DNA of 64,000 bases, from contig CANLUH010000004.1 in NCBI GenBank assembly GCA_947494205.1, positions 152,773 through 216,772 of the forward strand, read 5' to 3'. Position numbers and translations under genes: made by a program. Under the pieces are notes generated by a model that ran no database searches, was not told where the DNA came from, and was given only the letters and a program-made list of their open reading frames with translations. Shown one piece after another: positions 3,466-44,677 of this stretch. Origin of the DNA: an uncultured Flavobacteriaceae bacterium. GTDB lineage: Bacteria > Bacteroidota > Bacteroidia > Flavobacteriales > Flavobacteriaceae. The stretch's first letter is position 1; every line of letters begins with the position of its first letter.

Positions 3466-6207
3466 ATGAAACAATTTTATTCTAGACTTGTTTTATTCTG
3501 TTTAACGTTCTTCATGTTTTCTGCATTTAGTTTTGCACAAAACGGAAGATCTTTATGGTCTAAGACATCGCAAAATCAATTATCTAAAAAAGCTCAAGTT
3601 TTTAGAAAGACACAGCCTATAAAGGCTAATTATTATCAATTAAATATTGATGGATTACAACAATTATTACAAAATGCACCAGAGAGAAATGCAAATGTAA
3701 ACTCTAATGTTATATTAAGCTTTCCGACTGCAAATGATACTTTTGAAGCTTTTAGAATTACTGAAGCTTCGGTAATGCACCCAGAATTACAAAATAAATA
3801 CCCAAACATTCGTTCTTATGCGGGGCAGAGTATAGATAACCCTGGAAGTTTAATACGATTCTCTATTACGCCTCAAGGTTTACACGCTATGTTTTTAGCA
3901 CCAGGTAAAGGGACAGAATATATAGACCCTTACACTAAAGTAGATAACAACTACATTGTTTATTCTAAGAAAGACCTGCCTGCTATAGATCAGCCATGGG
4001 AATGTGGTGTTATAGATGGAGGTACTGCTATAGATGAAAAAACATTAAGCAATAGCTATCAATTAAGAGATACTGGAGACGGTATGATGCGTGATTTTAG
4101 AACAGCAATTGCTACAACTATAGAATACTCTGAGTTTCATTGGTTAGCTGCTGGCTTAACAGCTGGAGATACAGAAGCTGCTAAAAGAACAGCTGTTATG
4201 GCTGCCATTGTAGTAACAATGACGCGTAATAATTTTCTTTACGAAAGAGATTTTTCTATTACAATGACATTAGTTGCGAATAACGACCTTATTGTTTTTA
4301 TAAACTCAGATAACTTTACTAATACAGATTCTGTTGCTTTAATTGCAGAAAGTCAAGTAGAGATAGATAATGCTATAGGTAATGCTAATTACGACTTAGG
4401 TCACACGTTTAGTACTGGTGGCGGTGGTTTAGCAACACTAAATTCACCATGTAACAATGCTACTAAGGCAAGAGGTATTACTGGATTAGGTTCTCCTGTA
4501 GGAGATGCTTACGATGTTGATTTTGTTGCACATGAGTTAGGACACCAATTTGGTGCTCCACATACTTTTAATGGGAATATGGGGAATTGTGCTGGTAACA
4601 ATAGAGAACCAACAAATGCTTATGAAGTAGGTAGTGGAACAACTATTATGGCTTACGCAGGTATTTGTGGAAGTGATAACGTACAAAGTAATAGTGATGC
4701 TTATTTCCACCAAAAAAGTTTACAAATGATTTGGGATAACGTTAACTCTGGGGTTAGTACTTGTGCTACGCAAACACCTACAGGTAACAGTGCTCCAACA
4801 TCTGAAGCAGGAGCCAATTATACAATTCCAGTATCTACACCTTATAAATTAACAGGATCATCTACAGATCCAGATGGAACAACATTACATACATATACTT
4901 GGGAACAATATGATTTAGGACAAGCAGGTTTACCAACAGATGCAAACCCAGGAGGACCAATGGTTAGATCTTTTGAAGGCACAACAAGCCCTTCAAGATA
5001 CATTCCAAGGCTTCCAGATTTATATGACAGTGCAGGAGGTTCTACTACATGGGAGAAATTAGCTTCTACAGCTAGAGATTTAAACTTTAGATTAACTGTT
5101 AGAGATAACGATGCTAACGGAGGACGCACTGCTGTAGATAATATGACAGCTACAACAGTAGCAGCTGCTGGACCATTTTTAGTAACTTCTCAAGCTGCAG
5201 ATCAATTAGTTTGGACACCTGGTAATACAGAAACAATTACATGGGATGTTGCAGGAACAACAGGAAACGGAGTAGATACTGCTAATGTAAATATTTTATT
5301 ATCTATAGATGAAGGTGTTACATATACTTCTTTAGCATCTAATGTGCCTAATGACGGTTCTCATGATATAACAGTACCAAACGTAGAAGCTCCATTTTGT
5401 AGAATCATGGTAGAAGGTGTAGGAAATATTTTCTTTAACGTAAACGAAAAATTCTTTGCTATAGGTGACTATACATATGTATTACAACCAGAAACATGTA
5501 CAGACTATCCTTTTAACGCAGGTATAGAAGTTGTAGAAAACAGTGGATCTTACACTGGTTATAACCTTAATATTCCAGATTCTAGAACCATTTCTGATTT
5601 AAATATTAATGTTAATATTACAGCAACTGAAAACTCAGATCTTTGGTATGCTGTTAGAGCACCATGGCAACCAGCAGGACTACAACAGTTAGCTTCTGGT
5701 ATTTGTTCAGGAACAGCAGATACAGATATTACTTTCGATGACGAAGGTGTAGCAGTAGACTGTGGAAACACCAATGCTGGTAACAACTATATTCCTCAAA
5801 TTGCCTTATCTTTTGCAGACGGACAAGACCCTCAAGGAACATGGGTATTCTTTTTAACAGATATAACGGTAAATGGCAGTTCGCACACATGGAACTCTAC
5901 AACAATTACTGTTTGTGAGCAAGAAACTATTCCTGTGTTAACAGTAGAACAATTTAACTTAGAAACAACATTCTCTGTATACCCTAACCCAAATAATGGA
6001 GAATTTACTATTAAATTTAGTGGCGCTTCAGGTAATGTAGATTTACAAGTATACGATATTAGAGGTCGTTCTGTATTTAATAAAAACTATACTGAAACAG
6101 GAGATTTTAACCAAAATATAAACTTAGGTAATGTACAATCTGGAATGTATATACTTAATGTAAATGATGGTTCTAAAACCGTAACAAAAAAGATTATTGT
6201 TCAATAA
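3466..6207 (+). CDS. secreted zinc metalloprotease (reprolysin/M12B-like) with T9SS C-terminal sorting domain
   Basis: Signal peptide and an HELGHQFGAPH zinc-binding motif. The C-terminal ~80 aa (YPNPNNGEFTIKF...KKIIVQ) is a typical Por/T9SS CTD. Confidence 0.8.
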   Translation: MKQFYSRLVLFCLTFFMFSAFSFAQNGRSLWSKTSQNQLSKKAQVFRKTQPIKANYYQLNIDGLQQLLQNAPERNANVNSNVILSFPTANDTFEAFRITEASVMHPELQNKYPNIRSYAGQSIDNPGSLIRFSITPQGLHAMFLAPGKGTEYIDPYTKVDNNYIVYSKKDLPAIDQPWECGVIDGGTAIDEKTLSNSYQLRDTGDGMMRDFRTAIATTIEYSEFHWLAAGLTAGDTEAAKRTAVMAAIVVTMTRNNFLYERDFSITMTLVANNDLIVFINSDNFTNTDSVALIAESQVEIDNAIGNANYDLGHTFSTGGGGLATLNSPCNNATKARGITGLGSPVGDAYDVDFVAHELGHQFGAPHTFNGNMGNCAGNNREPTNAYEVGSGTTIMAYAGICGSDNVQSNSDAYFHQKSLQMIWDNVNSGVSTCATQTPTGNSAPTSEAGANYTIPVSTPYKLTGSSTDPDGTTLHTYTWEQYDLGQAGLPTDANPGGPMVRSFEGTTSPSRYIPRLPDLYDSAGGSTTWEKLASTARDLNFRLTVRDNDANGGRTAVDNMTATTVAAAGPFLVTSQAADQLVWTPGNTETITWDVAGTTGNGVDTANVNILLSIDEGVTYTSLASNVPNDGSHDITVPNVEAPFCRIMVEGVGNIFFNVNEKFFAIGDYTYVLQPETCTDYPFNAGIEVVENSGSYTGYNLNIPDSRTISDLNINVNITATENSDLWYAVRAPWQPAGLQQLASGICSGTADTDITFDDEGVAVDCGNTNAGNNYIPQIALSFADGQDPQGTWVFFLTDITVNGSSHTWNSTTITVCEQETIPVLTVEQFNLETTFSVYPNPNNGEFTIKFSGASGNVDLQVYDIRGRSVFNKNYTETGDFNQNINLGNVQSGMYILNVNDGSKTVTKKIIVQ

Positions 6208-6228
6208 TAACAATAAAATTATATAGTA

Positions 6229-6263
6229 CTAAAAACTCCGAAAGTCTATTTTTCGGAGTTTTT
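6229..6263 (+). terminator. rho-independent terminator
   Basis: Hairpin aaaaCTCCGAAAgtctattTTTCGGAG followed by ttttttt. Confidence 0.6.
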
Positions 6264-6332
6264 TTATGCAACAACTTTTTCACTATTTTGCAAGATGTAT
6301 ATTAAAGTTACTTATACCATAAAATAATACTT

Positions 6333-7445
6333 ATGAATCTATCCTACTGGGAAATAAAAAGCTGGTTTACTAATGTAGATTATACAATAGTTGGTAGTGG
6401 TATTGTAGGACTTAATTGTGCCTTACAATTAAAAACACGATTTCCTAAAGCTAATGTTTTAATATTAGAAAAAGGCATGTTGCCCCAAGGTGCTAGCACA
6501 AAAAATGCTGGATTTGCATGCTTTGGTAGTTTAAGTGAGTTGATAGACGATTGTAATAATCATACAACATTAGAAGTATTAGAATTAGTAAAAAAGCGTA
6601 TTAATGGTCTACAATTATTAAGACAAACTTTAGGAGATGAATCTATTGATTATAAAGAACTAGGTGGTTACGAGTTGTTTTTAAAAAAAGATCCTGATTT
6701 TTATGACGATTGCCTTTCTAAGCGACACAGTATAAATACACTTCTAAAACCTATTTTTAATGATACCGTTTTCGACTTAAAAGATAACCAATTCCATTTC
6801 GAAAATATAAAACCACAATACAGTTTTAATAAATTTGAAGGACAGATTGATACTGGAAAAATGATGGAATCCTTACTTTTAAAAGTACAATCTAAGGGCA
6901 TTAAAATTATAAATAATTGTAAGGTTGAAGCATTTTCAGAGGATGCTAACTCTGTTAAAATAAAAACAAAAACATTCGAATTTTCTACATCAAAACTTTT
7001 AATAGCAACTAATGGATTTGCTTCACAATTATTAAACGAATCTGTAAAACCAGCTAGAGCTCAAGTTTTAATAACTAAACCCATTAAAAACCTACATATT
7101 AAAGGCACTTTTCATTTAGACAAAGGTTATTATTATTTTAGAAATATAGATAATAGAATATTATTTGGAGGCGGAAGAAACTTAGACTTTAAAACAGAAG
7201 AAACTACTACATTAGAACAAACAGAACTAATACAAAAATCTCTAGAAACACTATTAAAGAACACTATTTTACCAAATACACCTTTTGAAGTCGATCACCG
7301 TTGGAGTGGTATTATGGGGATTGGGCAACAAAAAAAAGCAATAGTAAAACAGCTTTCTAATAATGTATATTGTGGTGTTCGTTTGGGAGGCATGGGAGTA
7401 GCTATTGGTAGTTTAGTAGGTAAAGAATTGGGAGACATAATATAA
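6333..7445 (+). CDS. FAD-dependent oxidoreductase (DAO family)
   Basis: N-terminal Rossmann dinucleotide motif IVGSGIVGLNCALQL; ~370 aa. Confidence 0.7.
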   Translation: MNLSYWEIKSWFTNVDYTIVGSGIVGLNCALQLKTRFPKANVLILEKGMLPQGASTKNAGFACFGSLSELIDDCNNHTTLEVLELVKKRINGLQLLRQTLGDESIDYKELGGYELFLKKDPDFYDDCLSKRHSINTLLKPIFNDTVFDLKDNQFHFENIKPQYSFNKFEGQIDTGKMMESLLLKVQSKGIKIINNCKVEAFSEDANSVKIKTKTFEFSTSKLLIATNGFASQLLNESVKPARAQVLITKPIKNLHIKGTFHLDKGYYYFRNIDNRILFGGGRNLDFKTEETTTLEQTELIQKSLETLLKNTILPNTPFEVDHRWSGIMGIGQQKKAIVKQLSNNVYCGVRLGGMGVAIGSLVGKELGDII

Positions 7446-7513
7446 TGTATATCTACAACGTACTTTTCACTTACTTTTAGAATTAGTATATTTAAAATCC
7501 CTAAATGTAACTT

Positions 7514-9781
7514 ATGAAAAAATGGTTCCTCGTTTACTGCTTTCTAGTTATAGCGCCCAATACTATACTTGCGCAACATAAAACCGTAAAAACAACAGAA
7601 AAACAACTCAATACTTCTAACGACAGTATTTCTACTAAACTTACAGTATTAGCCTCTAAAGCTTTTAATTTTTACGAGAATGGTAATTATAGCCAATCGT
7701 TTCAAGCTAATTTAGAACTCTTAAAACAAGCACAGGCGGCAAACAATTTATACTACATACACAAAGGATATAGTAATCTTGGATACGATTATTTAATCCA
7801 AAAAGACACCACAAATGCTAAAGATAGTTTTGAAAAATCTAGAGCGTTTGCTGCTAAATCTGACAATAAAAATGCACTTGCCAACACATACATGGATTTA
7901 GGAAATCTATATGTTATGGATAAGTCGCAAATGGCAAAAGCTTATACATATTACGATAAATCTGTTTCAATATTTAAAAACTTTGAAGATGTTACAGGTT
8001 TAGTTGCTGCATATTTTAATATTCTTATAGCGGCAATGAAAGAGAATAACTTAGACAAAGCTGACATCTATATTAAAAAATTAGACACACTACTTGAAAG
8101 GAGCAAAGATTACGATGGTGCTAATTGTAAAATTGCTTTAAATAATATTACAGCCGATTTTTATACCAAAAAGAAAAACTACAAACTATCTAATACGCTT
8201 TTTCAAGACGTAATCACTAAAGGAGAACTTGCTCAATTATCTTCAGAGTTAGAAACAGCTTATTTTAAATATAGCGAAAGTCTTCATGCCCAAGGTAAAT
8301 ACAAAGAAGCTTTTAATGCTCGTAAAAAATATGAAATTTATTATAAGAAAAATGAAGCCGATAGACTTTCAAAAGAAAGCAAAATATTATCCAGTCAATT
8401 TAAAATTTCAGAATACAAAAAGGATTTAAAAAAAGCAGAATTAGAATCTCAACTTCAAAAAGTAAAAGCAGATAATCGCTCTATTCTTAACTTTATTTTA
8501 ATGAGTGTTTCTATCACGCTACTACTTATGTTTATCTATTTGTTTTTTGTTATAAAAAAACGAAAACAACTCTATAAAGCACTTAAAACAAAAAGCAAAG
8601 CTTATTTAAAAGCGAAACAAGAATCCGATAAGTTAGCAAAGGTAAAAAGTAACTTTTTCTCTACAGTAAGTCACGAATTAAGAACACCTCTTTATGGCGT
8701 CATTGGTTTAAGCTCTATTCTTTTAGACGATGATTCATTAAAAGAAGAGCATAAAAAAGATTTAAAATCCTTAAAATTCTCAGCCGATTATTTATTAGCA
8801 CTAATAAATGATGTATTGCTTATAAACAAAATAGATTCTAATAAAGTAGATAACGATAATCGTCCTTTTAATTTAAAAGAGCTTATTAATACGATTATAA
8901 CTTCTTTTGAATTTATGTGCATACAAAACAACAATAAAATTAATATATCTATAGATAATAATATTCCCCAATCTATTCGCGGCAACTCAATAAGCCTCTC
9001 TCAAATACTAATGAATTTAGTGAGCAATGCCTGTAAATTCACAGAAAATGGTACTATAGATTTACAAATAACCTGCAAACCGCCTGTTAACAATACTATA
9101 GCCCTTACTTTTTACATAAAAGACACAGGTTATGGTATCTCTAAAGAAAAACAAAAAACTATTTTCGAAGAATTTAAACAAGGCGATACCGTTAGCGTAA
9201 ATTATCAAGGAACAGGTTTAGGTTTACCAATAGTAAAAAAATTAATACAGCATGCTAAGTCCGAAATACATGTAGAAAGTGAAGTAGGAAAAGGATCTAC
9301 ATTTTATTTTACTTTACTTTTCGATTTAATTACGATACAAAATAACACCTCTATAGTAAAGGATACGCCTCAATTATATGATGCTAAAACATTAGAAGGC
9401 AAACATATTCTTATTGTAGACGATAACCGTATAAACCTAACAGTTACAGAAAAAATTCTATCTAAAAACAATGTAAACTGTACAAAAGCAATTAATGGAG
9501 CTATAGCTGTAGATTTAGTAAAGAAGCATACCTTCGACCTCGTATTAATGGATATTAATATGCCCATTAAAAATGGCTTAGAAGCAACAAAAGAGATAAG
9601 AGAGTTTAATACAGAATTGCCAATTATTGCCCTTACAGCAGTAGAAATAGAAGAAATGCGCCAAAAAATATATCAATCTGGAATGAACGATATTATAATA
9701 AAACCTTATGATATTGTTACATTTAAGCAATCCATCACGAAAAACTTAATTTCGCCAAAAATCAAAGTATCTGTCAATTAA
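7514..9781 (+). CDS. hybrid sensor histidine kinase/response regulator with periplasmic TPR repeats
   Basis: Signal peptide, TPR-like repeats and a TM helix. H-box SHELRTPL, HATPase motifs (DTGYGIS, GTGLGL), and a C-terminal receiver domain (ILIVDDNRINL...LVLMDINMP). Confidence 0.85.
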   Translation: MKKWFLVYCFLVIAPNTILAQHKTVKTTEKQLNTSNDSISTKLTVLASKAFNFYENGNYSQSFQANLELLKQAQAANNLYYIHKGYSNLGYDYLIQKDTTNAKDSFEKSRAFAAKSDNKNALANTYMDLGNLYVMDKSQMAKAYTYYDKSVSIFKNFEDVTGLVAAYFNILIAAMKENNLDKADIYIKKLDTLLERSKDYDGANCKIALNNITADFYTKKKNYKLSNTLFQDVITKGELAQLSSELETAYFKYSESLHAQGKYKEAFNARKKYEIYYKKNEADRLSKESKILSSQFKISEYKKDLKKAELESQLQKVKADNRSILNFILMSVSITLLLMFIYLFFVIKKRKQLYKALKTKSKAYLKAKQESDKLAKVKSNFFSTVSHELRTPLYGVIGLSSILLDDDSLKEEHKKDLKSLKFSADYLLALINDVLLINKIDSNKVDNDNRPFNLKELINTIITSFEFMCIQNNNKINISIDNNIPQSIRGNSISLSQILMNLVSNACKFTENGTIDLQITCKPPVNNTIALTFYIKDTGYGISKEKQKTIFEEFKQGDTVSVNYQGTGLGLPIVKKLIQHAKSEIHVESEVGKGSTFYFTLLFDLITIQNNTSIVKDTPQLYDAKTLEGKHILIVDDNRINLTVTEKILSKNNVNCTKAINGAIAVDLVKKHTFDLVLMDINMPIKNGLEATKEIREFNTELPIIALTAVEIEEMRQKIYQSGMNDIIIKPYDIVTFKQSITKNLISPKIKVSVN

Positions 9782-17468: not shown

Positions 17469-17503
17469 AATCATTGTACGATAGTTTTGTCGTACAATAC
17501 GTC

Positions 17504-18220
17504 TTATTCTGCAAATACAATAGTTGTATCTTCTAGTTTATGTTCAATAATATACCTTGCCAAATTACACCAAATGGTTACACGGTCTAAAATCCAAGCA
17601 TCTGAAGTTATGACGACAGCTTCACTTTCGGCTAAATAGTTGTCGGGATTATTTTCTAAAATAATGTCCCAATTATAGTTTTCTTGCTCTGCTAATTCTC
17701 GTAGTTTAGTTTTTAATCGTCCACTATTAGACACTGGTTTGTCTAAAACCCAAAGTACACTTTTCACCTCAGCTTGTTTTAAAACGGCCCCAATTAGTAA
17801 TAACGCTTGCTCTGTTTGTTGTACACGTTTATACGTGCCATAAACACTAGATAAATCGCGATAACAATGATCTAATCCTTTAAATATATACCCTTGAGAT
17901 AAGGCACTTTCTAAAATAATAATGAGATTAAAACCATCGATAATAATATCTTTACCTTTTAAAGCTTCTAGAGTAATACAAGTAGATACACGTTGTTCTA
18001 TTTGTTCTTTTGAAGCACTCATACCTTGCAGAGCTTGTTGCTGTCTTACATTAAGTCGGTATCTGTTTCCTACTAATTGTACAGATGATTTTTGAGCATA
18101 ACCTCTAGATAGCAAGTAACACATATCTGTTACAGCCTCTTTAAGTTTTTCTTGCATTTTTAGAGTCCCAAACAATAAATCGTCTCTCCCCTCTTTTCCT
18201 CTATTTTTTAGGTTGCTCAT
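17504..18220 (-). CDS. hypothetical protein
   Basis: 238-aa ORF with no recognised motif. It borders the island's left edge. Confidence 0.4.
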   Translation of the reverse strand: MSNLKNRGKEGRDDLLFGTLKMQEKLKEAVTDMCYLLSRGYAQKSSVQLVGNRYRLNVRQQQALQGMSASKEQIEQRVSTCITLEALKGKDIIIDGFNLIIILESALSQGYIFKGLDHCYRDLSSVYGTYKRVQQTEQALLLIGAVLKQAEVKSVLWVLDKPVSNSGRLKTKLRELAEQENYNWDIILENNPDNYLAESEAVVITSDAWILDRVTIWCNLARYIIEHKLEDTTIVFAE

Positions 18221-18326
18221 TCTATTTATATTCTTTGAAAGACTGTTTTGTTTTTAATTGGGTTTCGCCTTTAGCCTGTCTTGAGCGGAGTCGAAAGGCT
18301 CAACCTGACATAATTAATACTTAAAA

Positions 18327-18378
18327 TAAAGTAAGCGAGATTCGAACCCGCATCTCCTGCGTGACAGGCAGGTGTTTT
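18327..18378 (-). pseudogene. 3'-terminal fragment (~50 nt: anticodon stem through acceptor 3' strand) of tRNA-Asp(GTC); direct repeat of the intact gene at 19021-19092
   Basis: aaagtaagcgagaYtcgaacccgcatctcctgcgtgacaggcaggtgtttt is identical, bar one nucleotide, to the 3' half of the downstream tRNA-Asp. The upstream D-arm/acceptor 5' side is diverged and does not fold. Confidence 0.55.
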
Positions 18379-18517
18379 CCGATTATTATTAGTGCTTTCT
18401 TTGTTTTTATATACCCAATCATTCAAAGTTCGAGCTTTATTTATGAATGCTTATTAAAAGATGAAATCAGTTCTTTATTTTTCTTATCCAATAATAAAAT
18501 ACATTTCTAGACCTTTT

Positions 18518-18895
18518 TTATTTTTTCATAATTTGCTCAACATATCTTTTATGGTTTTCATATCCATTCTTCTTTGGATTTTTCAAATCTATCATACTTC
18601 CTAATCCTGTATCGAAAATTTGCCAATCATGAAGTTTTGCAAGTTCAATCAATTCAAACAACCCATTTTCACCATATAAACTCAGCATCATATTACTTAC
18701 TGGCTCATTACTAATAAAAAAGTCAATCGAGAAGTCTTTTCCTTTTATCTCTCGATGATTCTCATCTTCAATAATATCACTAAATGAACTTTCAAGAATT
18801 CCTGTAAAATCAATCGATTCAAGTTTACCTTCGTCCAATTCTTCAATTGATTTAATAATCTCCTTTGACTTAAATATTACAATATCCCAGCTCAT
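18518..18895 (-). CDS. hypothetical protein
   Basis: 125-aa acidic ORF lying between the tRNA-Asp fragment and the intact tRNA-Asp. Confidence 0.35.
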   Translation of the reverse strand: MSWDIVIFKSKEIIKSIEELDEGKLESIDFTGILESSFSDIIEDENHREIKGKDFSIDFFISNEPVSNMMLSLYGENGLFELIELAKLHDWQIFDTGLGSMIDLKNPKKNGYENHKRYVEQIMKK

Positions 18896-19020
18896 ATTTT
18901 ATTTAGTTAATTTTTTCAACAATCTAATATTTCAAATATAGTAAATCGTTGAGATTATGTATTACTGATATAATCCATTTTAAGTATTCTTTTCGATAGA
19001 AGAATTATTGTAAAGTAAGC

Positions 19021-19092
19021 GAGACTCGAACCCGCATCTCCTGCGTGACAGGCAGGTGTTTTTCCAGTTAAACTATTACTTTCTTTATTTGA
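19021..19092 (-). tRNA. tRNA-Asp(GTC)
   Basis: Manual cloverleaf: acceptor AAAGTAA/TTACTTT, D-stem GTTT/AAAC, anticodon arm CCTGC-CTGTCAC-GCAGG, T-arm GCGGG-TTCGAGT-CTCGC. Confidence 0.7.
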
Positions 19093-19102
19093 TGAAGTAG
19101 GC

Positions 19103-19175
19103 GAGATTCGAACTCGCAACCTCCTACCTGGCAGGCAGGCGCTCTTCCCATTGAGCTACTACTTCTTGTATTATT
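19103..19175 (-). tRNA. tRNA-Gly(GCC)
   Basis: Acceptor GAAGTAG/CTACTTC, D-arm GCTC-AATGGGAA-GAGC, anticodon loop CTGCCAG, T-arm GCGAG-TTCGAAT-CTCGC. Confidence 0.7.
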
Positions 19176-19180
19176 ATTAG

Positions 19181-19250
19181 GAAAGTACATTGGACTCGAA
19201 CCAATATTTCGGGTATGAGACCGACGATTTCCAGTTATCTTAGTACTTTC
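19181..19250 (-). tRNA. tRNA-like element with CAT-containing anticodon-like loop (degenerate; possible Met-like pseudogene)
   Basis: Perfect 7-8 bp acceptor (GAAAGTA/TACTTTC) and a good T-arm (ATTGG-TTCGAGT-CCAAT). The D-arm and anticodon stem do not pair canonically. Confidence 0.3.
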
Positions 19251-19402
19251 TTTTTGGGGAATGAGCAGGATTACTCACGCCATTTTATTTTTGTTAATAG
19301 GTGTTCATGAATACTTCGTATTTGAACCCGCATATACAACTTGGCTAGTTGTCGTTTTCCATATTTTAACCACCATTCCCATTTATATCATTAAAAAAAG
19401 TA

Positions 19403-19475
19403 AAGCGCATGTGAGGCTCGAACTCACGACCCTTAGGTTGTCTGCCTAATGCTCTTCCAACTGAGCTAACACGCT
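19403..19475 (-). tRNA. tRNA-Val(GAC)-like with A at position 33
   Basis: Acceptor with two G-U pairs, D-arm GCTC-AGTTGGAA-GAGC, anticodon arm TTAGG-CAGACAA-CCTAA, T-arm GTGAG-TTCGAGC-CTCAC. The track ORF 19261-19449 is an artefact overlapping this and other elements. Confidence 0.5.
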
Positions 19476-19485
19476 TTACAGTATT

Positions 19486-20853
19486 TTACCACGGACTTAC
19501 TTTATAATCTTTTAATAACGTTCCTACTAATATAGCATTTCCATTTAAGGCCTCTATAATTGGATACAATATTCTTGCTGCTCCATCTACTGAATCTAAA
19601 GGCGGAATATAGCCTTCTTCAAATTGTTTTTTACGCAATGCTTCTTTTGCTCCAGTAGAGATCCAACCCACATCTACTGCGTACATATAAATGTTATCTT
19701 TTTTATAATCTGTTCCAGACGTTTTTGTTAGCATATTTAATGCGGCTTTTGTCATATTAGTATGCGGATGAAAAATCGTTTTATTACTATAGTTAAAAAT
19801 ACCTTCAGAAGAGGTCACATTAATAATAAAACGTTGATTAAATTCTGAATTCTTAAACAATGGAGTCAATTCTTTAATCATAAAATAAGGCGATATTTGA
19901 TTAATTAAATTCACTTCTAACAACTCGTACATAGACACTTCTTCTAGCGTAGAATTCCAACTTGTTTTGGTACGTTCATCTACGGGTTGCCCAAATCTAT
20001 TCATTTCGAAATCTTTATTTTCTGATGTATCTGCTAAGAGTTTCACATCTTCTATAACTGCTGTTTCATTTGGAATTAAATGTGTTTCTCCAGTATATGA
20101 TTCTACTAACTTCTGCTCTTTTTTTACTATTGGCAAGTAATAATTATCATCGTATTTTATTGTTTGTGCTGCATTATTTATAAGAATATCTAAAGTGCTG
20201 TACTTCGATTTGTAATAAGAAATAAAGTGTTCTACTGCTTTTAAATTACGTAAATCTAATCCGTAAATAGTAAGCCTATCTTTCCATAAGTTATAATCGC
20301 TTTCTTTTTTAAAACCTTCTAATGCTAGAGCTGGAAAACGTGTGGTTAACATAACATTTGCATCGGCTCGTAATAATTTTAAAGCGGTTGCAAATCCTAC
20401 TTTTACGCGACCTCCAGTAATAATAACATTTCTATTTTTTAAATCTACTGTTTTAAAACGTTGGTTGTAATTAAATTCTGCGCAGTCTGGACATAAACGG
20501 TTATAGAAAAAATGTAACTTATTGAAATCGGTACCACAACAATAACATCCTTTTGATTTATTTAATAGTTTATAAGTAGTATCCTCCTTGTTATCATCTG
20601 CATATAGCGTTTTATTTCCCAATGCATTTTTTGAAATTACAGTACTTTTTATTGTTACTATATCTTCGGCTTTTACTTTAGTAAAAGCTTCTTTTGTTTT
20701 ATATTTTTTTGCTGTTTTATAAACCTTGGTTATTAATCCTGATAGTAGTGGGTTATCGGGATTATTAAATGGGTCTTTTTTAAGTTCGTTTAAAACCTTA
20801 ATACAGTGTTCCCATTCTTCTTGAGTGTAATTATATGATTCGAATGTATTCAT
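19486..20853 (-). CDS. Zn-ribbon-fused SDR-like oxidoreductase
   Basis: N-terminal CxxC...CxxC (CYCCG...CPDC) followed by a Rossmann motif ITGGRVKVGFATALKLL and NNAAQ. Catalytic residues are atypical. Confidence 0.55.
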   Translation of the reverse strand: MNTFESYNYTQEEWEHCIKVLNELKKDPFNNPDNPLLSGLITKVYKTAKKYKTKEAFTKVKAEDIVTIKSTVISKNALGNKTLYADDNKEDTTYKLLNKSKGCYCCGTDFNKLHFFYNRLCPDCAEFNYNQRFKTVDLKNRNVIITGGRVKVGFATALKLLRADANVMLTTRFPALALEGFKKESDYNLWKDRLTIYGLDLRNLKAVEHFISYYKSKYSTLDILINNAAQTIKYDDNYYLPIVKKEQKLVESYTGETHLIPNETAVIEDVKLLADTSENKDFEMNRFGQPVDERTKTSWNSTLEEVSMYELLEVNLINQISPYFMIKELTPLFKNSEFNQRFIINVTSSEGIFNYSNKTIFHPHTNMTKAALNMLTKTSGTDYKKDNIYMYAVDVGWISTGAKEALRKKQFEEGYIPPLDSVDGAARILYPIIEALNGNAILVGTLLKDYKVSPW

Positions 20854-20861
20854 CTTTACTA

Positions 20862-31237: not shown

Positions 31238-31450
31238 TTTATTATTAATTACAGTACAAATATGAAATGAGATTACGCAATAGTTTTGCGTAGTTTAATT
31301 TTTTATGTTTTAGAGTAGAAAATAGTTGCAATTACAAATAGAACATGAATCTGCGTAAGCGATTGCAGCGGCATCCTTTTGCTTTTTCTGCAAAAGATAT
31401 AGCGAAAAGCGCGACCCAAACCTTTTTCTGGTTTGGGTTACGCCATAATA

Positions 31451-32599: not shown

Positions 32600-34560
32600 T
32601 AATAGAATTCCTTTTACTTGGAATGGCTATTCTTTTAGTAAAAACAAATTGAAAGCAAACCATCTTTAAGGCTACGGAAATACAAGCGTTTTAGAGTATT
32701 CTACAAATCGTTTTTATTAACGTTTTATTAGTAGACCTTGTAGTTCTTCAAGATATTTCTAACAATAGGCTTTCTAAAAAGGAGATGCAAAACGGCTTTA
32801 AATACTTCTGTATTTCAAGGTGCCTTCTAGATTGTAAAAACAACGTGTTGCTTTTACCTGTTTACCTTCTCTTTGTTTTTGTTTTGCCATTTAACGTGTG
32901 GCTCACAGTGGTGGTCGATTTTTAAAAGAGACCTTCTTTGTGAAAAGGCGGGTTTTTAATCCGCATCCTACATTAACAGTGTAGTGCTCTACCGCTGAGC
33001 TATATGACCTTTACAGTTGTCATAACAGGAATCGAACCTGTGCTTGTCTATTGTTCTAACCTGACTGAACTATCTCAAATGAATTGAGAGTGGGAATCGA
33101 ACCCACGACCTATAGAGTGATGATTATTTTTTGGATAAACAATCGAAACCTTCAAGTCTAGTTGAACATAAATACCTAATACCTATTGGCAAGATTTTAT
33201 ACAATAGTGTTATACAGAAACACCCAACAAGACCAGCTTGATATTTTTATAATTCCCGCTTTCGGGGAATCTTATTCTAATAAATTTGTACCTCTTGCCG
33301 GATTCGAACCGGCACTTTCAGATAATTCTGAACAGATAGGCTCTAAATGCGCTTCCCTACTCTACATCTTGTGTATTTCGGTGCTTCTGCAAAACCTAGT
33401 CATTGGCGGGCGCGCCACCAACCACATAATCCTATCACTCCATGGCTACGAATCAAAATCTTTTTCCACAGCTCTTCCCTTTAAGCTAAAGAGGTATATA
33501 TTTTAAAAAACGCTTTGAGAATACTTACGTTTGTAGATGAGCTTTCCTAGTATTATAGCTTGTGCTTTCTCTAGTTTTCCACGTTATTCTAATTGCTTAG
33601 AGAATCACGTACTCACCCGATGCCTTATTACATTACAACTGTTCGGCAACTTAGACTTAGCTTGCATAGTGGTTTTATACCACGCTTTGCAATTACAAGG
33701 GTTGGCTCCCTCACTATTAATAGGCGTCCTCTTTACGAGGCGGCCTACTAGAATGTTCACCGCACAGTAAAGGCTTGCGACCTTTACCGCCCCATATATT
33801 ACAATGGGTTTAGGCAACTACTAACTGCTGTAACGCTCGAAGTCTTTTGCGTTTGCTCACCAATTGAGCCATATCAAATTATGGTTTAGATACTAGGAAT
33901 CGAACCTAGAAATAAAGTTTTGACCTAGGAAAAGGGCTTCGAAAATGGCTTCGTAGATTTTAGCCTACAAAATACCAACCTTTTCCTTGTGTGTTTCCCA
34001 ACACACCGTATTTTAAGTTACCGAATCGTTTCCCACCGGGTAACTTTAATACTGCAACACGCTCCGTTAGACTGGATAATCTATACGTAACCCATTACTA
34101 CAACTTTTCCTATTAGTGTCTCCACCTCAAGCCTATATAAAAGTCGGCTATAAATCCTTATTTACGCCAGCGGTTGCCCCTTGTAAATAGTTATTTATGT
34201 TAGTTGCTTGCTTACGTGTACTATAATCTAAATGACTATAGTCTCCATTTGCAGTGTCTGCAAATAGATTTATCCTTGTTACCAAGTTTATCTATGGACG
34301 ATAAGCCGCCCCATCATTTATAATAAATGATGATTTTTTTCTAATAGAAGCTATCAAAAAAGTATTAAAAAAAGCGTCATTCTAAATTCATTTCAGAATC
34401 CCATTAAATTGACTTACAATTGTTATGAGAAACCGAATCAAGTTCGGTTTGACGAAAATTTGCCTTTTAAGACAGTTTCATTTTATTTCAATGATCGTTT
34501 TATTAAACTTAGATAGCTTCTTTTTAAGGGCCTTCTAAATAATTACTCTGCAAATATTTC
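32600..34560. other. ~2-kb ORF-free, highly structured region containing tRNA halves/fragments (candidate large ncRNA or decayed tRNA array)
   Basis: Only short mutually overlapping ORFs. Several perfect T-arm hairpins (ACAGG-TTCGATT-CCTGT; GTGGG-TTCGATT-CCCAC; GCCGG-TTCGAAT-CCGGC) and a tRNA-Asn-like 5' half (GGTCATATAGCTCAGCGGTAGAGCACTACACTGTTAATGTAG) without matching partners. Confidence 0.35.
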
Positions 34561-36731: not shown

Positions 36732-36844
36732 TAGTCCAGGTGGGATTCGAACCCACGACCCGCGGATTATGAATCTATACAGGAACTTTTATTTGTCGAA
36801 AGCGAAAAGTAATTTCGCTGCTCTAACCTCTGAGCTACTGGACT
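36732..36844 (-). tRNA. tRNA-like element (Val-TAC-like arm) with ~45-nt insertion between anticodon arm and T-arm
   Basis: Acceptor AGTCCAG/CTGGACT, D-arm GCTC-AGAGGTTA-GAGC, hairpin GCGAA-ATTACTT-TTCGC, then the insertion, then T-arm GTGGG-TTCGAAT-CCCAC. Three degenerate partial copies (repeat unit containing TATAGGAAC) lie at 36566-36735. Confidence 0.35.
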
Positions 36845-37645: not shown

Positions 37646-37919
37646 ATTTATTTTGAGGAACATACTGAGATTAACTCGTTCCTTTATATTTTATTAAAAC
37701 TATACTCGTGAATGCACAGCATTTCGAACCCGTATCTTCTGGCTTAACTCAATAAATTCTATTTTTTAAATAGGATTCGTTGAATTCGCAAACTCATTTC
37801 AACCAGACGCATAGATCTACTTTGCTATTGCTCCTTTTTAGATGAATTAGAAATTATAAGTCAGTTTACCTCATTCACAACGAGGTGTTTTATCTAATAA
37901 ACCAAAATCATCATTTTTG

Positions 37920-37992: not shown

Positions 37993-38179
37993 ATTTTGTT
38001 AACCTGATAGGATTAGTTCGCTTCATTTTTATTCTTTTAAAGCTGTGCTCATGAATACTAAAGTATTACGAACCTATACCTCAAGAGTCAAATGCTTTGC
38101 ATTCACGAATACCTATTTAAAAAACAGAAACGAATGAGCTAAAGTCTTGAATGCTACCATTACACTACAAGTTAGTTTG

Positions 38180-38666: not shown

Positions 38667-38801
38667 AATTTTGTACATCTACCAAGATTCGAACTCGAAA
38701 CTATAGATTGGAAATGCTTTGCATTCACGAATACCAATTTAAAATTATAGAGTAGTGAGCTAAGTCTACTATGTTACCAATTACACTATAGATGCTTATT
38801 G

Positions 38802-39045: not shown

Positions 39046-39050
39046 ATGTT

Positions 39051-39180
39051 TTGGAGTTACGAAGACTTACACTCCGTTTTGCAAATTGCAAATGAGCTTG
39101 CGAATTCAACGAAACTTATTTATCAAAATAAATTTCAGTGAGTTAAACCCGTTGTTTTAGCCAGTTAAACTATAACCCCA
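39051..39180 (-). ncRNA. tRNA-like element whose acceptor strands (GGGGTTA / TAACTCC) are ~115 nt apart; possible intron- or insertion-containing tRNA
   Basis: 5' side has acceptor plus a perfect D-arm GTTT-AACTGGCTA-AAAC. The 3' side has CGGAG-TGTAAGT-CTTCG plus a complementary acceptor strand. The intervening segment contains the palindrome TTGCAAATTTGCAA. Confidence 0.25.
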
Positions 39181-39188
39181 TAGTATTG

Positions 39189-39363: not shown

Positions 39364-39509
39364 TTTTGCGGAAGGAGTGGGAGTAGTTCATGTTTTTTCT
39401 ATTTTATTAAATAGGTATTCATGAATACTTTGTATTTCGAATCCACACGAGTCATTAACTCCGAACAGTTTTCAAGACTGTGGCCACCTCCTATTGCCCT
39501 TCCGTTTTG

Positions 39510-43296: not shown

Positions 43297-43989
43297 TTAT
43301 TTTAATTCATTACGCAGGTCATTTTTTAATGTACTGCGTTGTTTTTTATAAGTTTTCACAACTTTGTTTTTCTTAAAATCGGATCCTTTAAAAACCTGTA
43401 TTGGGTTACCTCGTTCTAATTTTAAATGGTTTTCCCATTGATTTTTAATACTAGATTTAAGTGCTTTAAGTTGTAACTCGTTTACTTTTTCTTGTAAACG
43501 TATTCTTGCTATTTTTTTATTTTGATGTTGTGAGCGGCTATCCATTACTAACACTTGCGTATTAGTTGGTTTATGGATAGCCCTAATAGCGGAGCTCACT
43601 TTATTTACATGTTGCCCTCCTGGCCCTGAACTTCTTGTAGCTTGATAGTTAATATCTTTTTCATGTATCTGAAATTGTTGTTTTTGTTCAATTTCGTATA
43701 GCCCAACAAACCAGTTTTTACGTTTATGTTTTGGCCTAAATGTTGAAACTCCTATCCATTGTATTGTGCCTTTCCATTGATTTAAAAATGTACTTAGATC
43801 TTTTCCTTCCAACTGAATCGTGACAGATTGTAATGTCATGTTTTCAATTCCTTTTTCTCTTTGTAATATTTTATAATCTATAGTATTGCTTTTTACGGCG
43901 TCTAAAAATTTCTTTAATACTTGTGCTACAACCCAGCAACATTCTGCTGGACCTCGACCAGAGGTTATTTGTACTATTTTTGTTTCCAA
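43297..43989 (-). CDS. prfH: peptide chain release factor H-like (PrfH), GGQ-domain protein
   Basis: SSGPGGQHVNKVSSAIRAIHKPTNT...RSQHQNK matches the class-I RF catalytic domain. At 230 aa it lacks RF domain 1, as PrfH does. Located two genes from rtcB. Confidence 0.8.
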   Translation of the reverse strand: METKIVQITSGRGPAECCWVVAQVLKKFLDAVKSNTIDYKILQREKGIENMTLQSVTIQLEGKDLSTFLNQWKGTIQWIGVSTFRPKHKRKNWFVGLYEIEQKQQFQIHEKDINYQATRSSGPGGQHVNKVSSAIRAIHKPTNTQVLVMDSRSQHQNKKIARIRLQEKVNELQLKALKSSIKNQWENHLKLERGNPIQVFKGSDFKKNKVVKTYKKQRSTLKNDLRNELK

Positions 43990-43993
43990 TGTT

Positions 43994-44548
43994 TTATGTT
44001 TTTTCTAAAGGATTTTTAGAAAGTAATACATTACCTACTGGACTTTTACCTTTTTCAATGAGTTGTAACGCGGCTTTTACTGCCCAACATTTATCGCTAG
44101 AATGAATGTTAGAGTAATAGCTTAATAGTGTTTTAGGCTCTACTATTTTCCAGCCGTTTACTTCTATAGCTTCTACAGTAGCCGATTCGAAAAAGTCTAT
44201 AGTTACTCTTATTTGTTTTCCAGAGCTTAACCAATCAATCTTTTCGTAACGTCTAAAATTCTCATTACTTGGCATGTGATCGTATCTTGTCCACACTTTT
44301 TTAAAGCCTTCTTGTGCTAATATTACCATAACTTCTGCAACGTCTTTTGGACGCACAAAAATGTCTATATCCTTATGATCATGTGCATGTTTATATTCTG
44401 TATGGTCTTCTGGTGACATAAAATGCCATGCCCAACCTCCAGAGATTATAATCCATGATTTTAATTTATTTAAAATGTCCAAACCTTGTTCTATTCTATA
44501 GTTTGGCCATTGTTCTCCGTATCTTTTTATGTTATGATTTGCTCCCAT
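43994..44548 (-). CDS. hypothetical protein, possible minimal nucleotidyltransferase
   Basis: The ISGGWAW...HKDIDIFVRP pattern loosely resembles a GS/DxD NTase core. Assignment is weak. Confidence 0.35.
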   Translation of the reverse strand: MGANHNIKRYGEQWPNYRIEQGLDILNKLKSWIIISGGWAWHFMSPEDHTEYKHAHDHKDIDIFVRPKDVAEVMVILAQEGFKKVWTRYDHMPSNENFRRYEKIDWLSSGKQIRVTIDFFESATVEAIEVNGWKIVEPKTLLSYYSNIHSSDKCWAVKAALQLIEKGKSPVGNVLLSKNPLEKT

Positions 44549-44677
44549 TTTTTTTAGTCTTTAGCTATTAGCGTTAATTGAAATTCTACATTGCGTTAGG
44601 GATTGAGGCATTTGTTGAAGCTCCTCGCAGAGAGCGACTGCCAAAAGCCCGACCCTTGTGGTAACGCCAAAAACTTA

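What the first reader, a model, noticed from the sequence alone, without database searches (positions are those of the whole stretch)
18327..19092. Direct repeat of the 3' half of tRNA-Asp flanking a ~600-bp insert: possible att-site scar at the island's left edge
A ~50-nt segment, from the anticodon stem through the acceptor 3' strand, is duplicated almost perfectly at 18327-18378 and within the intact tRNA-Asp at 19021-19092. Only the 125-aa ORF lies between the two copies.

Site-specific integration into tRNA 3' ends produces exactly this kind of partial duplication. That suggests the island, or a decayed sub-element, entered via tRNA-Asp. The neighbouring tRNA-Gly is only 10 nt away.
Basis: seen in the sequence. 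Interest (0 to 1): 0.6.

Follow-up and report, generated by a model that had tools for sequence, protein, structure and literature searches.

The report
tRNA-Asp duplication brackets one inserted gene
A 0.6-kb piece of DNA carrying one small, widely travelling gene has been inserted right after a tRNA-Asp gene inside a bacterial tRNA-array/RNA-repair island, leaving a crippled second copy of the tRNA on its far side; this is a real but ordinary insertion scar, not the edge of the island.

Summary
The repeat is real. Window 18327-18378 matches 19011-19062 at 51/52 on the minus strand, inside an intact tRNA-Asp(GUC) at 19011-19082.

It is larger than reported. The repeated unit is 80 nt (18327-18406 vs 19011-19090), made of an 8-nt leader plus the whole tRNA. 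In the downstream copy, tRNA positions 5-20 are scrambled, so that copy is a pseudogene.

Six related Flavobacteriaceae contigs carry one tRNA-Asp with the same flanks and no insert. Deleting window 18327-19010 (684 nt) restores 94% identity to L033 with no gap at the junction. So this is a genuine insertion polymorphism.

The cargo is a 125-aa gene of unknown function, with about 600 homologues in Bacteroidota. Elsewhere it sits in unrelated contexts and never next to a tRNA.

The scar is internal to the island. The DUF434/DUF5616 gene to its left is a conserved island member. The island's junction with the chromosome is shared by relatives. No integrase was found in the window.

Most likely mechanism: single-crossover integration of a small circle carrying a tRNA-Asp-like segment. 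Local duplication followed by a separate insertion is the main rival.

Seen in passing: tRNA genes interrupted by intron-like insertions, switching anticodon loops, and a GOLLD RNA.

The parts
19011..19082 (-). Intact island-borne tRNA-Asp(GUC), upstream copy. It is preceded by the leader AAATAAAG at 19083-19090.
   Evidence: ARAGORN. Rfam tRNA 67.1 bits. 71/72 identical to the single tRNA-Asp of L033.
18407..19010 (-). Window-specific insert of about 604 nt, absent from all six relatives. It begins immediately after the discriminator base of tRNA-Asp.
   Evidence: blastn colinearity breaks at 19011 and 18402 relative to L033. Deleting 18327-19010 gives 94.3% identity to L033 over 370 columns with no gap at the junction. 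The flanks of ORF125 inside the insert match nothing in any fetched locus.
18518..18895 (-). ORF125, the only gene in the insert. It is an intact, conserved 125-aa protein of unknown function and behaves as mobile cargo.
   Evidence: 594 homologues at E<=1e-3; the 120 best listed are 65-82% identical, from Bacteroidota and Balneolaceae. No Pfam, NCBIfam or PADLOC family. AlphaFold2 pLDDT 86 with no PDB fold match at E<=0.001. Elsewhere it sits next to Imm63, on small Rep3/relaxase contigs, or beside a tyrosine recombinase.
18327..18406 (-). Downstream copy (pseudo-tRNA-Asp) with its leader. Segments: 18395-18406 is the leader plus tRNA positions 1-4 (11/12 identical); 18379-18394 is the scrambled patch at tRNA positions 5-20 (7/16, random level); 18327-18378 is tRNA positions 21-72 (51/52).
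   Evidence: Rfam 34.9 bits. Not called by ARAGORN.
18221..18326 (-). Ancestral downstream flank of tRNA-Asp, now following the pseudo-copy. It runs up to the start of the DUF434/DUF5616 gene.
   Evidence: Matches L033:7898-8000 directly downstream of its single tRNA-Asp.
17504..18220 (-). DUF434/DUF5616 gene, the conserved last gene of the island on this side. The true left boundary is the convergent hairpin at 17472-17499.
   Evidence: Pfam PF04256 + PF18481. 747 homologues. Same position next to the PPTase or backbone genes in L034, L009, L010, L035 and L058. Terminator-like hairpin.
19093..19165 (-). Neighbouring tRNA-Gly(GCC), 10 nt upstream of tRNA-Asp. It is part of the ancestral mini-cluster and is not involved in the event.
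   Evidence: Orthologous body present in all relatives.

Best explanation
Window 18327-19090 is an insertion scar inside a chromosomal tRNA-array/RNA-repair island.

What is there: a segment of about 604 bp carrying one intact, horizontally mobile 125-aa gene lies immediately 3' of an island tRNA-Asp(GUC) gene. The whole tRNA plus 8 nt of leader (80 nt) is repeated on the far side of the insert. The upstream copy is intact. The downstream copy keeps positions 21-72 (51/52) and the leader, but positions 5-20 are unrelated sequence, so it is a dead gene.

Proposed mechanism: a small circular DNA carried ORF125 next to a tRNA-Asp-like segment with a degenerate 5' part and a near-identical 3' 52 nt. 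It integrated by a single (Campbell-type) crossover within those 52 nt. The crossover was made either by a tyrosine integrase acting in trans or by homologous recombination. This one event explains three things:
- the intact gene keeps the chromosomal upstream flank;
- the defective copy inherits the chromosomal downstream flank;
- the foreign DNA starts and ends exactly at the repeat boundaries.

Shown: the insertion polymorphism, the extent and mosaic pattern of the repeat, the pseudogene status, the mobility of the cargo, and the internal position in the island.

Inferred: the circular intermediate, the crossover, the enzyme, and that the event was a gain.
For: - Six relatives with 81-86% identical DUF434 proteins carry a single tRNA-Asp with identical upstream (tRNA + ATAAAGAAAG) and downstream (TTTTAAGTATTAATTAT...) flanks, and no ORF125.
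- The foreign DNA abuts the repeat units at both ends; the sequence beyond them is at random identity, 8/40 and 12/40. That is expected if the duplication was made by the insertion itself.
- The mismatch mosaic is 9/16 in the patch vs 2/64 elsewhere (p = 2e-6). This fits a hybrid of two different parental tRNA-like segments, not uniform decay.
- ORF125 is found in unrelated contexts, including small Rep3/relaxase contigs and beside a tyrosine recombinase, with DNA homology limited to the ORF +-20 nt. Its best non-self match is 82%, which is consistent with horizontal transfer.
- There is a second case in this island family. In L007, a 47-nt direct repeat starts in the T loop of tRNA-His and brackets a 2.5-kb two-gene insert.
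Against: - No integrase or other recombinase in the window.
- No donor or circular form was found. Pattern scans of metagenome and viral contigs returned nothing.
- None of 27 ORF125-homologue loci carries a tRNA-Asp-like segment.
- The leader plus the first 4 nt of the tRNA are conserved in the pseudo-copy, while the next 16 nt are scrambled. A classical attP arm would not be expected to look like that.
- 52 nt is short for RecA-dependent recombination.
- A 12-nt inverted copy of the ancestral flank lies inside the insert (18977-18988 vs 18316-18327). The model does not explain it.
Confidence: 0.55

Rival explanations
1. Two separate events. First, a local tandem duplication of the [leader + tRNA-Asp] unit, part of the birth-and-death turnover of this tRNA mini-cluster. 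Later, ORF125 was inserted between the two copies. The 5' part of the redundant copy then decayed, or was overwritten by short-tract gene conversion from a paralogue.
For: - The repeat covers the whole gene plus its leader.
- The cluster clearly evolves by unit duplication and decay. The 'odd' tRNA at 19180-19249 shares the same leader and D-arm.
- L007 has duplicated Leu tRNAs.
- The patch in the pseudo-copy is weakly closer to the 'odd' paralogue than to random sequence (P = 0.015).
Against: - No relative shows the intermediate state of tandem Asp copies without ORF125.
- The foreign DNA would have had to land exactly at the duplication junction.
- Uniform decay is rejected (p = 2e-6), so a third event is needed to explain the patch.
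Confidence: 0.25
2. A single replication-based template-switching or break-repair event (MMBIR-like) at the tRNA gene. The repair copied foreign DNA and then re-copied the tRNA, producing duplication, insertion and small scrambled or inverted pieces together.
For: It would account for the complex details: the same-length 16-nt scrambled patch and the 12-nt inverted copy of the ancestral flank, 22 nt into the insert (roughly p = 0.003 by my own estimate).
Against: - No template for the patch or for the ORF125 flanks was found.
- The inverted 12-mer is AT-rich and was noticed post hoc.
- Such events are rarely documented with foreign DNA in bacteria (my own knowledge).
Confidence: 0.1
3. The arrangement is ancestral, and the relatives lost ORF125 by recombination between the two direct repeats.
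For: Direct repeats of 52-80 nt flanking 0.6 kb are deletion-prone, and a crossover in the 52-nt block would leave one intact tRNA. The window, L033, L034 and L035 are about equidistant from each other.
Against: This needs at least 3-5 independent, precise losses. More distant loci (L009, L013, L015, L018) also lack ORF125. No ORF125 homologue above 82% identity exists in 5.8 billion proteins.
Confidence: 0.07
4. One reading: the repeat is the attL/attR remnant of the whole tRNA/RNA-repair island, marking its left edge.
For: Only the general geometry of a tRNA plus a displaced copy.
Against: - A conserved island gene lies to the left of the repeat.
- The flank left of the pseudo-copy is the ancestral flank.
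- The island-chromosome junction is shared by several species.
- There is no matching repeat elsewhere in the window and no integrase.
Confidence: 0.03

Closest known systems
Genomic-island / prophage integration scars in tRNA genes (regenerated tRNA plus displaced 3' fragment; Islander database, PMC4383910; sublocation classes of Williams 2002, cited from my own knowledge)
   Same: An intact tRNA, then foreign DNA, then a displaced copy in direct orientation. The near-perfect identity block runs from just before the anticodon stem to the 3' end. Empty sites exist in relatives.
   Different: - The insert is only about 0.6 kb with one gene and no integrase.
- Similarity resumes in the leader and the first 4 nt of the tRNA, so the repeat is the whole gene with an internal scrambled patch.
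- The target is a tRNA inside an accessory tRNA array, not a housekeeping tRNA.
Integrase-less att-flanked remnants (cis-mobilizable elements, CIMEs, of streptococcal ICE families; cited from my own knowledge)
   Same: A small cargo segment bounded by att-like direct repeats without its own recombination module. It could be mobilised in trans.
   Different: No cognate ICE or integrase was identified. The phylum is Bacteroidota. No conserved att core is shared with other ORF125 loci.
Partial or non-canonical tRNA genes that score as tRNAs (van der Gulik et al. 2023, PMC9897764)
   Same: A tRNA fragment left by integration of a genetic element still passes a covariance-model threshold (Rfam 34.9 bits vs 29).
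   Different: Those examples are mostly archaeal and linked to identifiable integrated elements or CRISPR activity.
Long tRNA arrays (L-arrays) with RNA-processing neighbours, containing some pseudogenes (Santamaria-Gomez et al. 2021, PMC8421152)
   Same: The host structure here has 21 called tRNAs plus pseudo- and interrupted tRNAs, next to RtcB, PNKP, Rnl1/Rnl2, RlaP, a PrfH-like protein and an EF-G paralogue.
   Different: That work does not describe tRNA-bracketed gene insertions. Here the array is chromosomal and syntenic across several Flavobacteriaceae.

Membership tests
Integrase-mediated tRNA att scar (Islander-type island) | Regenerated intact tRNA and a displaced 3' fragment in direct orientation, bracketing foreign DNA | tested here: met
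   19011-19082 is intact; 18327-18378 matches at 51/52; same strand; insert in between.
Integrase-mediated tRNA att scar (Islander-type island) | Uninterrupted (empty) target site in related genomes | tested here: met
   L033, L034, L035/36, L058/59 and L061.
Integrase-mediated tRNA att scar (Islander-type island) | Tyrosine (or serine) integrase gene inside the element, usually next to the tRNA | tested here: not met
   The insert holds only ORF125, which has no recombinase domain. No integrase Pfam hit in the larger ORFs of the window that were scanned. The genome outside the window is not testable.
Integrase-mediated tRNA att scar (Islander-type island) | Identity block with a sharp 5' boundary inside the tRNA, with element-specific sequence upstream of it | tested here: inconclusive
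   There is a sharp drop at tRNA position 20/21, but 11/12 identity resumes in the leader plus positions 1-4.
Integrase-mediated tRNA att scar (Islander-type island) | The repeat marks the end of the island in question | tested here: not met
   A conserved island gene and the ancestral flank lie to the left, and the island junction is shared by relatives.
Simple tandem tRNA gene duplicate / pseudogene | Whole-gene unit duplicated, including its flank or leader | tested here: met
   An 80-nt unit in register.
Simple tandem tRNA gene duplicate / pseudogene | Copies adjacent, and divergence spread evenly as expected for neutral decay | tested here: not met
   604 nt of foreign DNA lies between the copies. 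Mismatches are clustered at 9/16 vs 2/64.
L-array type tRNA island with RNA-repair neighbourhood (host structure) | Long array of tRNA genes of many isotypes, with neighbours enriched in RNA processing and translation genes | tested here: met
   21 tRNAs. Rnl2, RlaP x2, an RNase T-like exonuclease, PNKP, Rnl1, RtcB, an RF-1 domain (PrfH-like) protein and an EF-G paralogue. The definition is from PMC8421152.

The most novel reading that the evidence does not exclude
Insertion of small integrase-less cargo at the 3' ends of array-borne tRNA genes, with duplication of tRNA sequence, may be a recurrent way these Flavobacteriaceae tRNA/RNA-repair islands gain genes. There are two instances: tRNA-Asp here and tRNA-His in L007. 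That would imply either an unidentified trans-acting tRNA-targeting recombinase or circle capture driven by tRNA homology. A more speculative variant is that the retained anticodon-arm/T-arm half of the pseudo-tRNA is kept as a decoy substrate for anticodon nucleases.
Probability: 0.2. Interest if true: 0.5.

Novelty: new member of a known kind. Interest (0 to 1): 0.3.

Why it matters
By itself this documents how one small mobile gene entered an accessory tRNA array, with clean before-and-after sequences. It corrects the idea that the repeat marks the island boundary. It is also a caution for annotation, because the pseudo-copy passes the Rfam tRNA threshold.

The more valuable outcome is the context it exposed. 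This is a chromosomal, syntenic island combining a tRNA array, a GOLLD RNA and an RNA-repair gene set. Its tRNA genes show anticodon-loop switching between close relatives. Several also carry sharp intron-like insertions with perfectly conserved exons. Those deserve their own follow-up.

Tried and rejected
- Exact look-up of ORF125 and the DUF434 protein in assemblies: not on record. Cluster look-up gave no accession or organism name.
- Pattern scans for the island-specific tRNA-Asp 3' part in metagenome and viral contigs, and for the scrambled patch in viral contigs: 0 hits.
- BLAST of the insert's non-coding flanks and of the patch against all fetched loci and the window: only chance-level matches.
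- ORF125 function:
  - no Pfam, NCBIfam or PADLOC family;
  - PDB sequence profile gives only weak ACP noise;
  - the Foldseek PDB top hit is SirA at E = 0.02, TM 0.53, not convincing;
  - the afdb50 library was unavailable;
  - no tblastn hit in PLSDB plasmids.
- Association of ORF125 with tRNAs elsewhere: rejected. No tRNA or tRNA-Asp unit in 27 loci.
- L035 'Asp(ATC)-Asp(GTC)' as a tandem Asp duplication: rejected. The ATC gene is the orthologue of the window's tRNA-Gly body.
- Chance repeat: rejected.
- Patch as an inversion of the original 16 nt: rejected by inspection.
- Sigma-70 promoter scan: not above shuffles. The terminator-like hits are just tRNA arms.

Full report
**Observation.** ARAGORN finds 21 tRNA genes in the window, all on the minus strand. 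They include tRNA-Asp(GTC) at 19010-19082 and tRNA-Gly(GCC) at 19093-19165. Rfam agrees on the tRNA-Asp, placing it at 19011-19082 with 67.1 bits.

The reported repeat is real. A 33-mer from it occurs exactly twice in the window, against none in 100 shuffles. Self-BLAST gives 18327-18378 vs 19011-19062, 52 nt at 98.1%. The rest of the description holds: one 125-aa ORF between the copies and tRNA-Gly 10 nt away.

**The repeat is a whole-gene unit.** Taken in register, 18327-18406 and 19011-19090 form an ungapped 80-nt unit matching at 69/80. The unit is an 8-nt leader plus the 72-nt tRNA. Nine of the 11 mismatches fall in tRNA positions 5-20. There the identity is 7/16, the level of random 16-mers from this island (Fisher p = 2e-6).

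The 12-mer AAAYAAAGAAAG covers the leader and the first four tRNA bases. It occurs only twice in the 64-kb window, both times at these positions (0.22 expected). So the similarity upstream of the patch is not chance. Beyond the unit, similarity drops to random on both sides: 8/40 and 12/40.

The downstream copy scores 34.9 bits on the Rfam tRNA model (gathering score 29). ARAGORN does not call it. It folds into the anticodon and T hairpins only. It is a pseudogene.

**Relatives and the empty site.** A genome scan with the adjacent DUF434/DUF5616 protein returned 26 Bacteroidota loci. A protein search followed by contig look-ups gave closer relatives.

- L033 is 98% identical to the window over the Rnl2 region and 86-90% identical around the site.
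- In L033, window 21708..19011 aligns to 5177-7897, and window 18402..17586 aligns to 7822-8644. Both window copies therefore map onto one L033 tRNA-Asp, at 7826-7897.
- The sequence upstream of the intact copy is the L033 upstream flank. The sequence downstream of the pseudo-copy is the L033 downstream flank.
- Deleting window 18327-19010 (684 nt) gives 94.3% identity to L033 over 370 columns, with no gap at the junction.
- L034, L035/L036, L058/L059 and L061 likewise have a single tRNA-Asp directly upstream of DUF434, with no ORF125.
- The DUF434 proteins of the window, L033, L034 and L035 are 81-86% identical to one another, roughly equidistant.
- More distant loci (L009, L013, L015, L018) also lack ORF125.

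A gain in the window lineage is therefore the parsimonious reading.

**The cargo.** ORF125 (18518-18895, minus strand) is intact. It has 594 homologues at E<=1e-3; the 120 best listed are 65-82% identical. The best non-self match is 82%, from a Balneolaceae genome. It matches no Pfam, NCBIfam or PADLOC family. A confident AlphaFold2 model (pLDDT 86) has no convincing PDB fold match.

Its homologues sit in unrelated contexts:
- overlapping an Imm63 gene in Algoriphagus;
- on small contigs of about 7 kb encoding Rep3 and a relaxase;
- near a tyrosine recombinase in Balneolaceae;
- within runs of small hypothetical genes.

DNA similarity to those loci stops about 20 nt outside the ORF. None of 27 such loci (150 kb) holds a tRNA or a tRNA-Asp-like segment. 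ORF125 thus behaves as a promiscuous single-gene cargo with no general link to tRNAs.

**Position in the island.**
- From 17504 to about 51 kb, nearly all genes are on the minus strand. They encode DUF434/DUF5616, an SDR with an N-terminal extension, Rnl2, two RlaP nucleotidyltransferases, an RNase T-like exonuclease, PNKP, Rnl1, metallophosphatases, an RF-1 domain (PrfH-like) protein, RtcB and an EF-G paralogue, together with the tRNA arrays.
- This matches the 'L-array' type of tRNA island, whose neighbourhoods are enriched in RNA-processing genes (PMC8421152).
- The DUF434/DUF5616 gene lies to the left of the pseudo-tRNA and is a conserved member of such islands.
- A convergent hairpin at 17472-17499 separates it from the PPTase gene of a flexirubin-type cluster.
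- The same junction, or one with the same backbone genes, is present in L034, L009, L010, L035 and L058.
- No integrase or transposase domain was found in the ORFs of at least 90 aa that were scanned.

The scar is therefore internal to an old, syntenic island. It is not the island's att site.

**Mechanism.** The foreign DNA begins exactly after the discriminator base of the intact copy. It ends exactly at the leader of the pseudo-copy. That is what a single-crossover integration of a circle carrying a tRNA-Asp-like segment would produce. The intact copy keeps the chromosomal 5' side. The pseudo-copy combines the incoming 5' part (leader, then the scrambled patch) with the chromosomal 3' part and flank.

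The clustered mismatches fit a hybrid of two parental segments better than they fit decay. Whether an integrase acting in trans or homologous recombination within the 52-nt block made the crossover cannot be decided here. I give this coupled-integration model about 0.55.

The main rival (0.25) is a tandem duplication of the unit followed by a separate insertion at the junction. It is helped by clear evidence that this mini-cluster evolves by unit duplication. The patch is also weakly closer to a paralogue's D-arm than to random sequence (P = 0.015). It is weakened because no intermediate state is seen and because it needs three events.

A template-switching repair event (0.1) would explain a 12-nt inverted copy of the ancestral flank inside the insert. 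Ancestral presence with repeated loss (0.07) and an island-edge att site (0.03) are unlikely.

A second example supports insertion at array tRNAs as a recurring process. In L007, a 47-nt direct repeat starts in the T loop of tRNA-His, extends 26 nt past the gene, and brackets a 2.5-kb insert with two genes of unknown function.

**Comparison with known systems.** The structure works like the regenerated-target/displaced-fragment signature of islands integrated in tRNA genes (PMC4383910). The pseudo-copy is the kind of fragment that covariance models mis-score as a tRNA (PMC9897764). Membership in the integrase-mediated class is not established. The integrase feature was tested and not met within the window. 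The sharp-boundary feature is inconclusive. The island-edge feature is not met. I file this as a new member of a known kind: a small integrase-less islet at a tRNA gene.

**Things seen on the way, not part of the finding.**

1. Anticodon switching. The tRNA body next to tRNA-Asp is nearly identical in close relatives but carries different anticodon loops: GCC in the window, a 9-nt loop read as TCA in L033, GCA in L034 and ATC in L035. Homologous bodies carry ACC and CTC in L013 and L018.

2. Interrupted tRNA genes. The 'gaps' in the arrays hold tRNA genes interrupted by sharp insertions of 46-52 nt.
   - tRNA-Leu(UAA) at 23021-23205 has one insertion after the D stem and one between TTCGAA and TCC of the T loop. 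Its exons match the uninterrupted genes of L034, L007 and L010.
   - L007 has both an intact copy and a D-interrupted copy with identical exons. The 20-nt palindrome in the D insertion shows two compensatory pair changes between L007 and the window.
   - tRNA-Ser(UGA) at 39364-39508 has a T-loop insertion, while the genes in L010, L007 and L002 are uninterrupted.
   - The Gly-like gene at 19250-19401 also has a T-loop insertion. It is uninterrupted in L034 and L061, and interrupted in L033 with the T stem still paired.
   - The T-loop insertions share a hairpin with one compensatory change. The motif also occurs in the opposite orientation in other tRNA-like genes.
   - The island encodes RtcB, Rnl1, Rnl2, PNKP and PIN-like/RNase H-like proteins. 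Splicing is therefore a testable possibility, but dead genes hit by a small mobile element are not excluded.
   - Two literature searches found no description of this.

3. GOLLD RNA. An ORF-free 2-kb stretch contains a GOLLD RNA match at 33510-33987 (136 bits, gathering score 150, E = 2.7e-37). A weak YrlA-like hit lies beside it.

Noticed in passing
window 23021-23205(-), 39364-39508(-), 19250-19401(-); also 37647-37918, 37993-38178, 38667-38800, 39046-39187, 36732-36844; L033:3625-3810 and 7506-7656; L007:17756-17874: tRNA genes interrupted by sharp insertions of 46-52 nt, while their exons match uninterrupted orthologues.
- Leu(UAA) has two insertions, one after the D stem and one between TTCGAA and TCC of the T loop (about position 59/60).
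- Ser(UGA) and a Gly-like tRNA each have a T-loop insertion.
- The D insertion holds a 20-nt palindrome with two compensatory changes between L007 and the window.
- The T-loop insertions share a hairpin (AATAC/GTATT vs AATGC/GCATT).
- The island encodes RtcB, Rnl1, Rnl2 and PNKP.

These could be protein-spliced bacterial tRNA introns, or a small mobile element killing tRNA genes. Two literature searches found no description.
   Followed up: partly
window 19093-19165(-); L033:7741-7815; L034:6789-6867; L035:741-814; L013:9170-9244; L018:9134-9207: The same tRNA body (GAAGTAGTAGCTCAA...CTACTTCA, anticodon stem CCTGC/GCAGG) carries different anticodon loops in close relatives: GCC, a 9-nt loop read as TCA, GCA and ATC. 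Homologous bodies carry ACC and CTC in more distant loci. Anticodon-loop switching on a conserved body in the mini-cluster between the SDR and DUF434 genes.
   Followed up: partly
window 33510-33987(-), with 33023-33132(-) and 32948-33079(-): GOLLD RNA match (RF02032) at 136.1 bits, just under the gathering score of 150, E = 2.7e-37, covering the full model. It lies in an ORF-free 2-kb stretch of the island. Beside it are a weak YrlA/Y-RNA-like hit (35.3 bits) and tRNA-like fragments.
   Followed up: no
L007:18010-18056 and 20558-20604 (Aureisphaera galaxeae): A 47-nt perfect direct repeat starts at the T loop of the last array tRNA (His, 17957-18030) and extends 26 nt past it. It brackets a 2.5-kb insert with two ORFs (344 and 481 aa, no Pfam). 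This is a second, more classical att-like scar in the same island family.
   Followed up: partly
window 18977-18988(+) vs 18316-18327(+): A 12-nt inverted repeat (ATTTTAAGTATT / AATACTTAAAAT). The first 12 nt of the ancestral flank downstream of tRNA-Asp recur in inverted orientation 22 nt into the insert. Unexplained, and possibly chance in AT-rich DNA.
   Followed up: no
window 19180-19249(-); L033:7657-7726; L061:53-122: A conserved 'odd' tRNA-like gene with a non-standard anticodon loop; ARAGORN reports anticodon 'ca'. It shares its leader and D-arm with tRNA-Asp and is identical in three relatives.
   Followed up: no
window 19486-21557(-) with 17504-18220(-); L009, L013, L015, L018, L019, L033, L034: A conserved module: orf231 (no family), then a 455-aa SDR with a Cys-rich N-terminal extension, then a small variable tRNA cluster, then a variable slot, then DUF434/DUF5616. 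The slot holds different genes in different genomes: ORF125 here, a gene of about 205 aa, an R2K ATP-grasp gene, or DUF6794.
   Followed up: partly
window 21831-23287 vs 17586-21708: Mosaic divergence from L033. The Rnl2/tRNA segment is 98% identical, while the adjacent island DNA is 86-90% identical. This suggests recent recombination between lineages within the island.
   Followed up: no
window 43297-46069(-), 48932-51001(-), 31345-31420(+): The island also carries an RF-1 domain (PrfH-like) gene with RtcB nearby, separated by one 184-aa ORF. The PrfH/RtcB pair is known as a ribosome rescue and repair module (PMC9304027). There is also a full-length EF-G paralogue and a Flavo-1 RNA motif.
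   Followed up: no
window 19011-19082(-): The island tRNA-Asp, with its AT-rich acceptor stem, is about 82% identical to tRNA-Asp genes of Citrobacter Moogle-like phages and about 74% identical to that of Aeromonas phage 65. This suggests a phage-type origin for the array tRNAs.
   Followed up: no
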